Of a stretch of DNA of 64,000 nt, positions 5,105 to 5,704 are shown one piece after another. Under the pieces are notes generated by a model. That model did not search any database and was not told where the DNA came from. It saw only the letters and a list, made by a program, of their open reading frames with translations. The stretch lies in assembly GCF_000027125.1 (NCBI RefSeq), contig NC_017626.1, one strand, 5' to 3'. The position numbers and the translations under genes were made by a program. This stretch comes from Escherichia coli 042. Its GTDB lineage: Bacteria; Pseudomonadota; Gammaproteobacteria; Enterobacterales; Enterobacteriaceae. Position 1 is the stretch's first letter. Every line of letters starts with the position of its first letter.

Positions 5105-5704
5105 ATGTTAATAAAGTTAATTGATTTACAAACTATCAAGATTTTCGAAAAAATAAACTCATCTTCATCCGATTTAAGTAAGGAAATAAAAATAAAATCG
5201 CCGCTTCTAATTCCCTATGAAAATCAAGGGGTAACATTTTATTGTGATGAGCTATATGTATTTGATTCCGATGGTTATATTGTATTTGGTCATGATTTAG
5301 ATGGTTATTTTATTGTTAGCGTAAAAAACAAGAAAGTTTATTACTTGTATGATATAGACGAATGCGCAAATTTTACGATGATGTATTGCAATTCTGGAAT
5401 AAATGATTTTATTATATTCAATAATATTTTTATGCAGGCGGTTTTTAAACAATCAGAATTGATGGAAAAACAATTGTTAACAGATGATGAAATTTTATCA
5501 GATGCAATGGATGCTATATTTACCCAATGCGACAGTGAGGCTATGAAAGATGATGCCTTCTGGGGCTTAAGATGCTACGAGCTTCGCGACGGCTTTTTTC
5601 CTTTAAATGATGCCAAAATTAAATTTTATAGTGAAATGGAAAAAGGTCCTCATCAAGGCAAAAGTGAATCCATTCACAAGAGCAAGTTGAACAAAAATGA
5701 TTAA
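5105..5704 (+). CDS. Hypothetical protein, islet gene C (199 aa from ATG 5105); possible SUKH/SMI1-like immunity-type fold (speculative)
   Basis: AGGA at 5095-5098 with 6 nt spacer; the segment GVTFYCDELYVFDSDGYIVFGHDLDGYFIVSVKNKKVYYLYDID resembles the aromatic/Gly/Asp-rich core of immunity-type small proteins. Confidence 0.5.
   Translation: MLIKLIDLQTIKIFEKINSSSSDLSKEIKIKSPLLIPYENQGVTFYCDELYVFDSDGYIVFGHDLDGYFIVSVKNKKVYYLYDIDECANFTMMYCNSGINDFIIFNNIFMQAVFKQSELMEKQLLTDDEILSDAMDAIFTQCDSEAMKDDAFWGLRCYELRDGFFPLNDAKIKFYSEMEKGPHQGKSESIHKSKLNKND

What the first reader, a model, noticed from the sequence alone, without database searches (positions are those of the whole stretch)
5105..5704. Islet gene C has an immunity-protein-like sequence signature
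The 199-aa product contains a block rich in aromatic, Asp and Gly residues with alternating hydrophobic positions (FYCDELYVFDSDGYIVFGHDLDGYFIVSVKNKKVYYLYDIDE). This resembles the core of SUKH/SMI1-KNR4-type immunity proteins found next to polymorphic toxins. It is pattern recognition without a profile search, and no cognate toxin gene is present in the window.
Basis: inference. Interest (0 to 1): 0.4.

Follow-up and report, generated by a model that had tools for sequence, protein, structure and literature searches.

The report
Orphan SUKH-4 immunity gene in E. coli

Summary
The 199-aa ORF at 5105-5704 (+) is a real gene under purifying selection. It lies in a 2-kb AT-rich islet between ybhM and ybhN of an E. 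coli chromosome. It matches Pfam SUKH-4 (PF14435) above the curated cut-off, and 22 of 25 relatives match it too, down to E=1.9e-15. An AlphaFold model has the SUKH core: a beta-hairpin, a four-stranded meander and flanking helices. When only that core is searched against the PDB, the top hits are SUKH proteins (3d5p, YobK, the Rhs immunity RhsPI, Lin2918, Knr4, FBXO3, Syd). It is not new, because NCBI already names the identical protein "SUKH-4 family immunity protein". No toxin gene lies in the window or beside any allele of this gene. The gene occurs in 5 of 5426 complete E. coli genomes, always at this locus. A 46%-identical paralogue sits in the tail of an Rhs element elsewhere in E. coli. 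The neighbouring DUF3969 gene has a relative in the CdiI (immunity) position of a Pseudomonas CDI locus. The best reading is an orphan immunity gene in a small, mosaic, horizontally acquired multi-immunity islet. The cognate toxin is unknown and the function is untested.

The parts
5105..5704 (+). Gene C: 199-aa cytoplasmic SUKH-4 family protein, a putative orphan immunity protein
5095..5098 (+). AGGA ribosome-binding motif, 6 nt upstream of ATG 5105
   Evidence: Read directly from the sequence.
4121..4498 (+). Gene A: 125-aa DUF3969 protein, a probable second immunity-type gene of the islet
   Evidence: Pfam PF13108 at E=2.6e-16. A 39%-identical DUF3969 protein lies 14 bp after a CdiA-type gene in P. 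aeruginosa, followed by orphan deaminase and EndoU cassettes.
4587..5045 (+). Gene B: 152-aa protein of unknown family; all three homologue clusters found are E. coli or unnamed run-assembly sequences
   Evidence: No hit in Pfam or NCBIfam, only sub-threshold hits elsewhere (PHROG E=0.18, PDB E=0.91), nothing in PADLOC. Only 3 homologue clusters were found.
5715..5739 (.). 25-bp duplicate of the 3' end of ybhN (the real copy is at 6046-6070), which marks the end of the A-B-C cassette
   Evidence: Self-BLAST gives 96% identity. Window 4114-5739 is collinear with strain GF4-3 up to and into ybhN.
5745..5822 (+). Stub of the 3' end of a second DUF3969 allele (A'), which begins the A'-D cassette
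   Evidence: Window 5746-5783 is 89% identical to 4414-4451. Window 5745-7100 is collinear (96%) with strain 88-3493 across DUF3969, D and ybhN.
5823..6044 (+). Gene D: 73-aa protein of unknown family, the usual partner of DUF3969 at this locus
   Evidence: The ORF abuts DUF3969 in strains PT62 and 88-3493 and in L007. Homologues exist in Salmonella (61%) and Burkholderia (46-49%). No family hit.
4063..6047 (+). The whole AT-rich islet (25-39% G+C in 500-bp windows, against about 53% in the flanks) between ybhM and ybhN
   Evidence: Composition profile. Any part of it is present in only 38 of 5426 complete E. coli genomes.

Best explanation
Gene C encodes a cytoplasmic SUKH-4 family protein that most likely acts as an orphan immunity protein. 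It would bind, one-to-one, the C-terminal toxin domain of a polymorphic toxin injected by a competing bacterium. Such a toxin would be carried by an Rhs/T6SS or CDI system and would most probably be a nuclease or another enzyme that acts in the cytoplasm. Binding would neutralise the toxin and protect a strain that does not make it.

The gene sits with at least one other immunity-type gene (DUF3969) in a small, horizontally acquired islet. The islet was assembled by recombination of two alternative cassettes at a variable spot between ybhM and ybhN.

Shown here: the gene is real and under purifying selection; it belongs to the SUKH-4 family; its model has the SUKH fold; there is no neighbouring toxin; the islet is rare and mosaic; and paralogues or relatives occur inside Rhs and CDI loci. 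Inferred: toxin binding, protection, and the identity of the toxin.
For: Family and fold:
- PF14435 scores above its gathering cut-off, and 22 of 25 relatives hit the same model.
- NCBI and PGAP use the SUKH-4 name for this protein and its alleles.
- The model shows a helix, a beta-hairpin, a 4-stranded meander and then helices. This is the core described for SUKH domains (PMC3113570).

Selection:
- dN/dS is 0.17-0.27.

Context:
- A 46%-identical paralogue lies in the RhsE element of E. coli E200086. It follows a full Rhs gene, that gene's downstream small ORF and an orphan Rhs tip.
- In another genome the same paralogue follows ISAs1/H-repeat copies and a gene carrying PF28203 CDI_Immunity_Comp.
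- A relative of neighbouring gene A (DUF3969) occupies the CdiI slot after a CdiA-type gene in P. aeruginosa.

Acquisition:
- The islet is 25-39% G+C against about 53% in the flanks.
- Gene C is present in 5 of 5426 complete genomes.
- The islet is a mosaic of two cassettes.

Precedent:
- Supernumerary or isolated SUKH genes were proposed to protect against non-self toxins (PMC3113570).
- SUKH-domain orphan immunity proteins protect Bacteroidales from a T6SS effector (bioRxiv 10.1101/2025.05.03.651265).
Against: - No toxin is adjacent to gene C in any allele.
- No toxin is adjacent to its more distant relatives in the other, mostly independent, contexts sampled.
- The one toxin fragment found next to a paralogue is a Tox-REase-7 tip that is truncated at its 3' end. 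Intact relatives of that toxin are followed by unrelated genes. That pairing is therefore probably not cognate.
- The Pfam score is only 1.7 bits above the cut-off and covers residues 55-153 only.
- Some SUKH proteins have non-immunity roles (Syd, Smi1/Knr4, FBXO3; PMC3113570).
- No expression or functional data exist.
Confidence: 0.6

Rival explanations
1. Gene C is a relic. It is the surviving immunity half of a toxin-immunity module whose toxin was lost, and it now has no function.
For: No toxin was found at the locus in any strain. The islet shows recombination scars and gene stubs. The neighbouring ybhM carries an in-frame stop codon.
Against: dN/dS of 0.17-0.27 holds across alleles whose dS reaches 1.3, so the protein has stayed under purifying selection. 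The ORF is intact in an AT-rich background where stop codons arise easily (P=1.7e-8). No Rhs, CdiA or other toxin remnant lies upstream of the gene.
Confidence: 0.15
2. Gene C is a SUKH-fold protein with a housekeeping or regulatory role. It would bind a host partner, as Syd binds SecY, perhaps acting with the co-located DUF3969 protein and the BI-1 family membrane proteins (YbhL/YbhM paralogues).
For: In Escherichia the gene is always linked to DUF3969 and lies next to a variable array of BI-1 paralogues. Most relatives in other genera stand alone among ordinary genes. SUKH members with non-immunity roles are known (PMC3113570).
Against: The DUF3969 and BI-1 linkage is confined to one Escherichia locus and is absent from the other contexts. 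DUF3969 itself occurs in an immunity position in a CDI locus. The 0.09% prevalence in E. coli and the foreign base composition do not fit a housekeeping role. A paralogue lies inside an Rhs element.
Confidence: 0.15
3. Gene C is a cognate immunity protein for an unrecognised toxin encoded inside the islet. The most likely candidate is gene B, which lies 59 bp upstream.
For: B has no detectable family and immediately precedes C on the same strand. B and C occur together in all five complete genomes that carry C.
Against: B has no toxin-domain hit, no delivery domain and no Rhs or CdiA homology. In locus L007 gene C is present without B. The B alleles are much more diverged than the C alleles between strains (68% protein identity against 90%), which points to independent histories.
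Confidence: 0.07

Closest known systems
SUKH-4 group of the SUKH superfamily (Pfam PF14435; Zhang, Iyer & Aravind 2011, PMC3113570)
   Same: The profile match is above the curated cut-off. The predicted beta-hairpin, 4-stranded meander and flanking helices are present. The protein is small and cytoplasmic. It is sporadically distributed and horizontally transferred. It also occurs isolated or in arrays without a toxin, as that paper describes.
   Different: It belongs to a small, divergent sub-clade: only 27 cluster representatives at 50% identity among 1.84 billion. The query matches only the C-terminal two-thirds of the Pfam profile. No member of the sub-clade has yet been seen next to an intact cognate toxin.
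Solved SUKH-1 (SMI1/KNR4) immunity proteins, e.g. RhsPI in complex with the RhsP WHH nuclease (PDB 8bd1), and B. subtilis YobK (2prv)
   Different: Sequence identity is only 9-12%. Gene C has an extra C-terminal helical bundle (residues about 128-179) that dominated the whole-protein fold searches. It has no adjacent toxin.
Orphan immunity arrays: acquired interbacterial defence (rAID) clusters of Bacteroidales with SUKH-domain orphan immunity genes (bioRxiv 10.1101/2025.05.03.651265), and the orphan toxin/immunity tails of E. coli Rhs and CDI loci
   Same: There are several small immunity-type genes on one strand with no toxin. Presence is strain-variable and the composition is foreign. There is evidence of cassette shuffling.
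   Different: There is no recombinase, integrase or insertion sequence in the islet. There are no toxin-tip fragments between the genes. The islet is not attached to an Rhs, CDI or T6SS locus. It holds only four genes, two of them of unknown family.

Membership tests
SUKH-4 (Pfam PF14435) | Significant match to the family profile at or above the curated gathering score | tested here: met
   27.2 bits against a cut-off of 25.5, E=4.9e-6, residues 55-153 aligned to profile positions 78-173 of 179. 22 of 25 relatives match, with a best E-value of 1.9e-15. NCBI names the identical protein SUKH-4 family immunity protein.
SUKH superfamily | Core fold of four helices and six strands: a beta-hairpin plus a 4-stranded beta-meander (PMC3113570) | tested here: met
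Cognate immunity protein of a polymorphic toxin system (Rhs, CDI, T6SS) | The gene lies immediately downstream of the toxin gene or toxin-tip fragment it neutralises | tested here: not met
   No toxin lies in the window or beside any allele. A 46% paralogue follows an orphan Rhs tip (Tox-REase-7), but that tip is truncated and its intact relatives pair with unrelated genes.
Immunity protein (functional definition) | Binds a toxin domain and protects the cell from it | not testable with these tools
   This needs co-expression, competition or binding experiments. The cognate toxin is unknown.
Orphan / multi-immunity gene cluster | Two or more immunity-family genes in tandem without a toxin, with strain-variable presence and signs of horizontal transfer | tested here: met
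   C is SUKH-4. A is DUF3969, whose relative sits in the CdiI position in P. aeruginosa. B and D are of unknown family. The islet is in 38 of 5426 complete genomes and gene C in 5. G+C is 25-39% against about 53% in the flanks. The structure is mosaic.
[quoted passage not shown] | The array is associated with a dedicated recombinase or other mobile-element genes | tested here: not met
   The only ORFs of 50 aa or more inside the islet, apart from ones embedded in or overlapping these genes, are A, B, C and D. None has an integrase or transposase hit.

The most novel reading that the evidence does not exclude
The ybhM-ybhN intergenic spot may be a previously undescribed chromosomal hotspot in Escherichia. 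It would accrete orphan immunity cassettes (DUF3969, B, SUKH-4, D) by recombination without any recombinase, giving an E. coli counterpart of the Bacteroidales acquired interbacterial defence islands. In that reading DUF3969, B and D are unrecognised immunity families, and the adjacent BI-1 paralogues, whose number varies between strains, could be membrane-toxin immunity proteins of the same island.
Probability: 0.2. Interest if true: 0.45.

Novelty: already known. Interest (0 to 1): 0.2.

Why it matters
Orphan immunity genes decide which strains survive contact-dependent attack in crowded niches such as the gut. This gene would be one more example, in a rare E. coli lineage, sitting away from any toxin locus. 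The practical result is small. An unaided sequence-texture guess has been confirmed, and the annotation already exists. Three details may be worth a specialist's glance. The islet is a clean two-cassette mosaic. DUF3969 appears to be a CdiI-type immunity family. No toxin partner is yet known for this SUKH-4 sub-clade.

Tried and rejected
- **Profile search of PDB sequences.** It found nothing significant.
- **NCBIfam, PADLOC and PHROGs scans of A-D.** No significant hits.
- **Search for a cognate toxin through relatives.**
  - Eight encoding-contig look-ups on C relatives (one found nothing) and one genome-collection scan returned no intact toxin next to any relative. The first genome-collection attempt failed because the alignment was too divergent.
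  - The promising Tox-REase-7/SUKH-4 pair in E. coli E200086 was rejected as a cognate pair. The toxin fragment lacks about 35 C-terminal residues, and its intact relatives are followed by unrelated genes.
- **Plasmid search.** Gene C and gene B have no homologue on plasmids.
- **Weak hit to a 3438-aa protein (P0030).** It is a non-ribosomal peptide synthetase and the hit is a false lead.
- **Promoter and terminator scan of the islet.** It found no more sites than expected by chance.
- **Literature.** Nothing was found on DUF3969 or on a ybhM/ybhN island.
- **Context of gene D homologues in Burkholderia and Salmonella.** These records are unannotated and were uninformative.

Full report
**Where the window comes from**

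The window is an E. coli chromosome segment. It runs moaA'-moaBCDE, ybhL, ybhM, then a 2-kb islet, then ybhN, clsB, ybhP, ybhQ, ybhR, ybhS and onward. Its first 15.7 kb are 100% identical to two public E. coli assemblies, LECL01000063.1 and the NCTC genome LR134238.1. The islet (4063-6047) has 25-39% G+C in 500-bp windows, against about 53% in the flanks. It carries four same-strand genes:

- A (4121-4498), a DUF3969 protein
- B (4587-5045), of unknown family
- C (5105-5704), the gene in the finding
- D (5823-6044), of unknown family

- Gene C is an ATG-initiated 199-codon ORF with an AGGA motif 6 nt upstream.
- The quoted aromatic/Asp/Gly-rich block is residues 45-86.
- At the islet's base composition, an open frame of this length has a chance probability of 1.7e-8.
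- Alleles from other strains are 90%, 81% and 61% identical in protein. They give dN/dS of 0.17-0.27 at dS up to 1.3. This is a real gene under purifying selection.

**Family membership**

- Pfam SUKH-4 (PF14435) matches at 27.2 bits, above the gathering cut-off of 25.5, with E=4.9e-6 over residues 55-153.
- An exhaustive HMMER search of 1.84 billion cluster representatives found only 27 relatives. Of the 25 I aligned, 22 hit SUKH-4 individually, down to E=1.9e-15.
- The identical protein is already in NCBI as "SUKH-4 family immunity protein [Escherichia coli]". PGAP uses that name for the alleles in four complete genomes.

**Fold**

- The AlphaFold2 model (pLDDT 84) has an N-terminal helix, a beta-hairpin, a four-stranded meander, a long helix and a further helical bundle.
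- The first six strands and the flanking helices correspond to the published SUKH core of [quoted passage not shown] (PMC3113570).
- Whole-protein fold searches were swamped by the helical bundle.

**Toxin linkage**

- No toxin gene lies in the window. No ORF exceeds 810 aa, and the remaining genes fit the ordinary K-12 order.
- Gene C occurs in only 5 of 5426 complete E. coli genomes. It is always between ybhM (or ybhL) and ybhN and never next to a toxin. It has no plasmid homologue.
- More distant relatives mostly stand alone among ordinary genes. These are in Superficieibacter, Stenotrophomonas, Saccharibacillus and other genomes or metagenome contigs whose organisms I did not identify.

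Three observations still tie the clade and its neighbour to polymorphic-toxin loci.

1. A 46%-identical paralogue lies in the RhsE element of E. coli E200086. It follows a VgrG fragment, a full Rhs gene with its downstream small ORF, and an orphan Rhs tip. In another genome, at the same yncG-yddH site, the same paralogue follows ISAs1/H-repeat copies and a gene carrying CDI_Immunity_Comp.
2. That orphan tip is a Tox-REase-7 nuclease domain (E=6.3e-8). I do not take it as the cognate toxin. It lacks about 35 C-terminal residues, and its intact 64-66% relatives are followed by unrelated genes.
3. Gene A's family, DUF3969, occupies the CdiI position in P. aeruginosa. There a 39%-identical protein starts 14 bp after a filamentous-haemagglutinin/DUF637 (CdiA-type) gene. 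Orphan deaminase and EndoU cassettes follow it.

The islet therefore holds at least two immunity-type genes and no toxin.

**Islet history**

- Window 4114-5739 is collinear with strain GF4-3, whose order is A-B-C-ybhN. The match includes 25 bp of the ybhN 3' end.
- Window 5745-7100 is collinear with strain 88-3493, whose order is A'-D-ybhN. The match begins with a stub of a second DUF3969 allele.
- The window thus carries two alternative cassettes joined head to tail.
- Alleles of the islet differ by 4-26% in DNA between strains, while the flanking core differs by about 1-6%. This fits old, exchanged accessory alleles.

**Interpretation**

The best-supported reading (confidence about 0.6) is an orphan immunity protein. 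It would sequester a cytoplasm-acting toxin domain delivered by competitors. This was proposed for supernumerary SUKH genes (PMC3113570). It has been shown experimentally for SUKH-domain orphan immunity genes of Bacteroidales (bioRxiv 10.1101/2025.05.03.651265).

Family membership and fold are shown here. Binding, protection and the toxin's identity are inferred.

The rival readings are:

- a functionless relic, which the purifying selection argues against
- a non-immunity SUKH role with host partners, which the rarity of the gene and the Rhs/CDI contexts of its relatives argue against
- an unrecognised toxin inside the islet, such as B, which has no positive evidence (and C occurs without B in one locus)

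**Novelty**

The call is correct but already present in public annotation, so the interest is low. The mosaic islet, DUF3969 as a likely CdiI-type family, and the absence of any known toxin partner for this SUKH-4 sub-clade are minor leads.

Noticed in passing
window 3322-4062 (stop codon at 3646-3648): ybhM (BI-1 family, 237 codons) carries an in-frame TAA where strain GF4-3 has Leu, which splits it into 108-aa and 129-aa ORFs. The same stop is present in two independent assemblies that are 100% identical to the window over this stretch, so it is a lineage feature, not a sequencing error.
   Followed up: partly
window 5715-5739 and 5745-5822: These are recombination scars. One is a 25-bp copy of the ybhN 3' end and the other is a stub of a second DUF3969 allele. 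They show the islet is two alternative cassettes (A-B-C and A'-D) joined head to tail.
   Followed up: yes
window 4121-4498; L027 2603-2956: DUF3969 has no literature. In P. aeruginosa it sits 14 bp after a CdiA-type gene and ahead of orphan deaminase and EndoU cassettes, which suggests it is an unrecognised CdiI-type immunity family. A DUF3969 fragment also lies on a small E. coli plasmid that carries an Rhs core gene.
   Followed up: partly
L001 1790-3999; L014 1644-3131; L002 and L015 (gap after ybhL): The number of BI-1 family paralogues between ybhL and the islet varies among E. coli strains. There are none beyond ybhL in N96 and 88-3493, one (ybhM) in the window, two in PT62 and three in GF4-3. 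This low-GC membrane-protein array is itself a variable region.
   Followed up: no
L022 7928-12671 (E. coli E200086, RhsE locus): The order is a full Rhs gene, a small ORF, an orphan Rhs tip with a 3'-truncated Tox-REase-7 nuclease domain, and then a SUKH-4 gene 46% identical to gene C. The same strain also carries the DUF3969 islet at ybhN without gene C.
   Followed up: yes
L013 10001-11779; L017 and L020 (Saccharibacillus): In L013 and the two Saccharibacillus loci the SUKH-4 relative lies after an M20-type peptidase gene. In L013 it is followed directly by a Thg1-like gene and an AAA_33 kinase gene, with a SMI1_KNR4/SUKH_6 protein 4 kb upstream and a second SUKH-4 gene 9 kb downstream.
   Followed up: no
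window 5823-6044; L029 869-1084; L028 6001-6219: Gene D (73 aa) has 61% homologues in Salmonella and 46-49% homologues in Burkholderia. It is therefore a conserved small protein family with no name. The contexts were unannotated and uninformative.
   Followed up: partly
L012 9312-9839: The gene immediately upstream of a 43% relative of gene C gives a weak, sub-threshold hit to Imm26 (E=0.0015). This may be another small immunity array.
   Followed up: no
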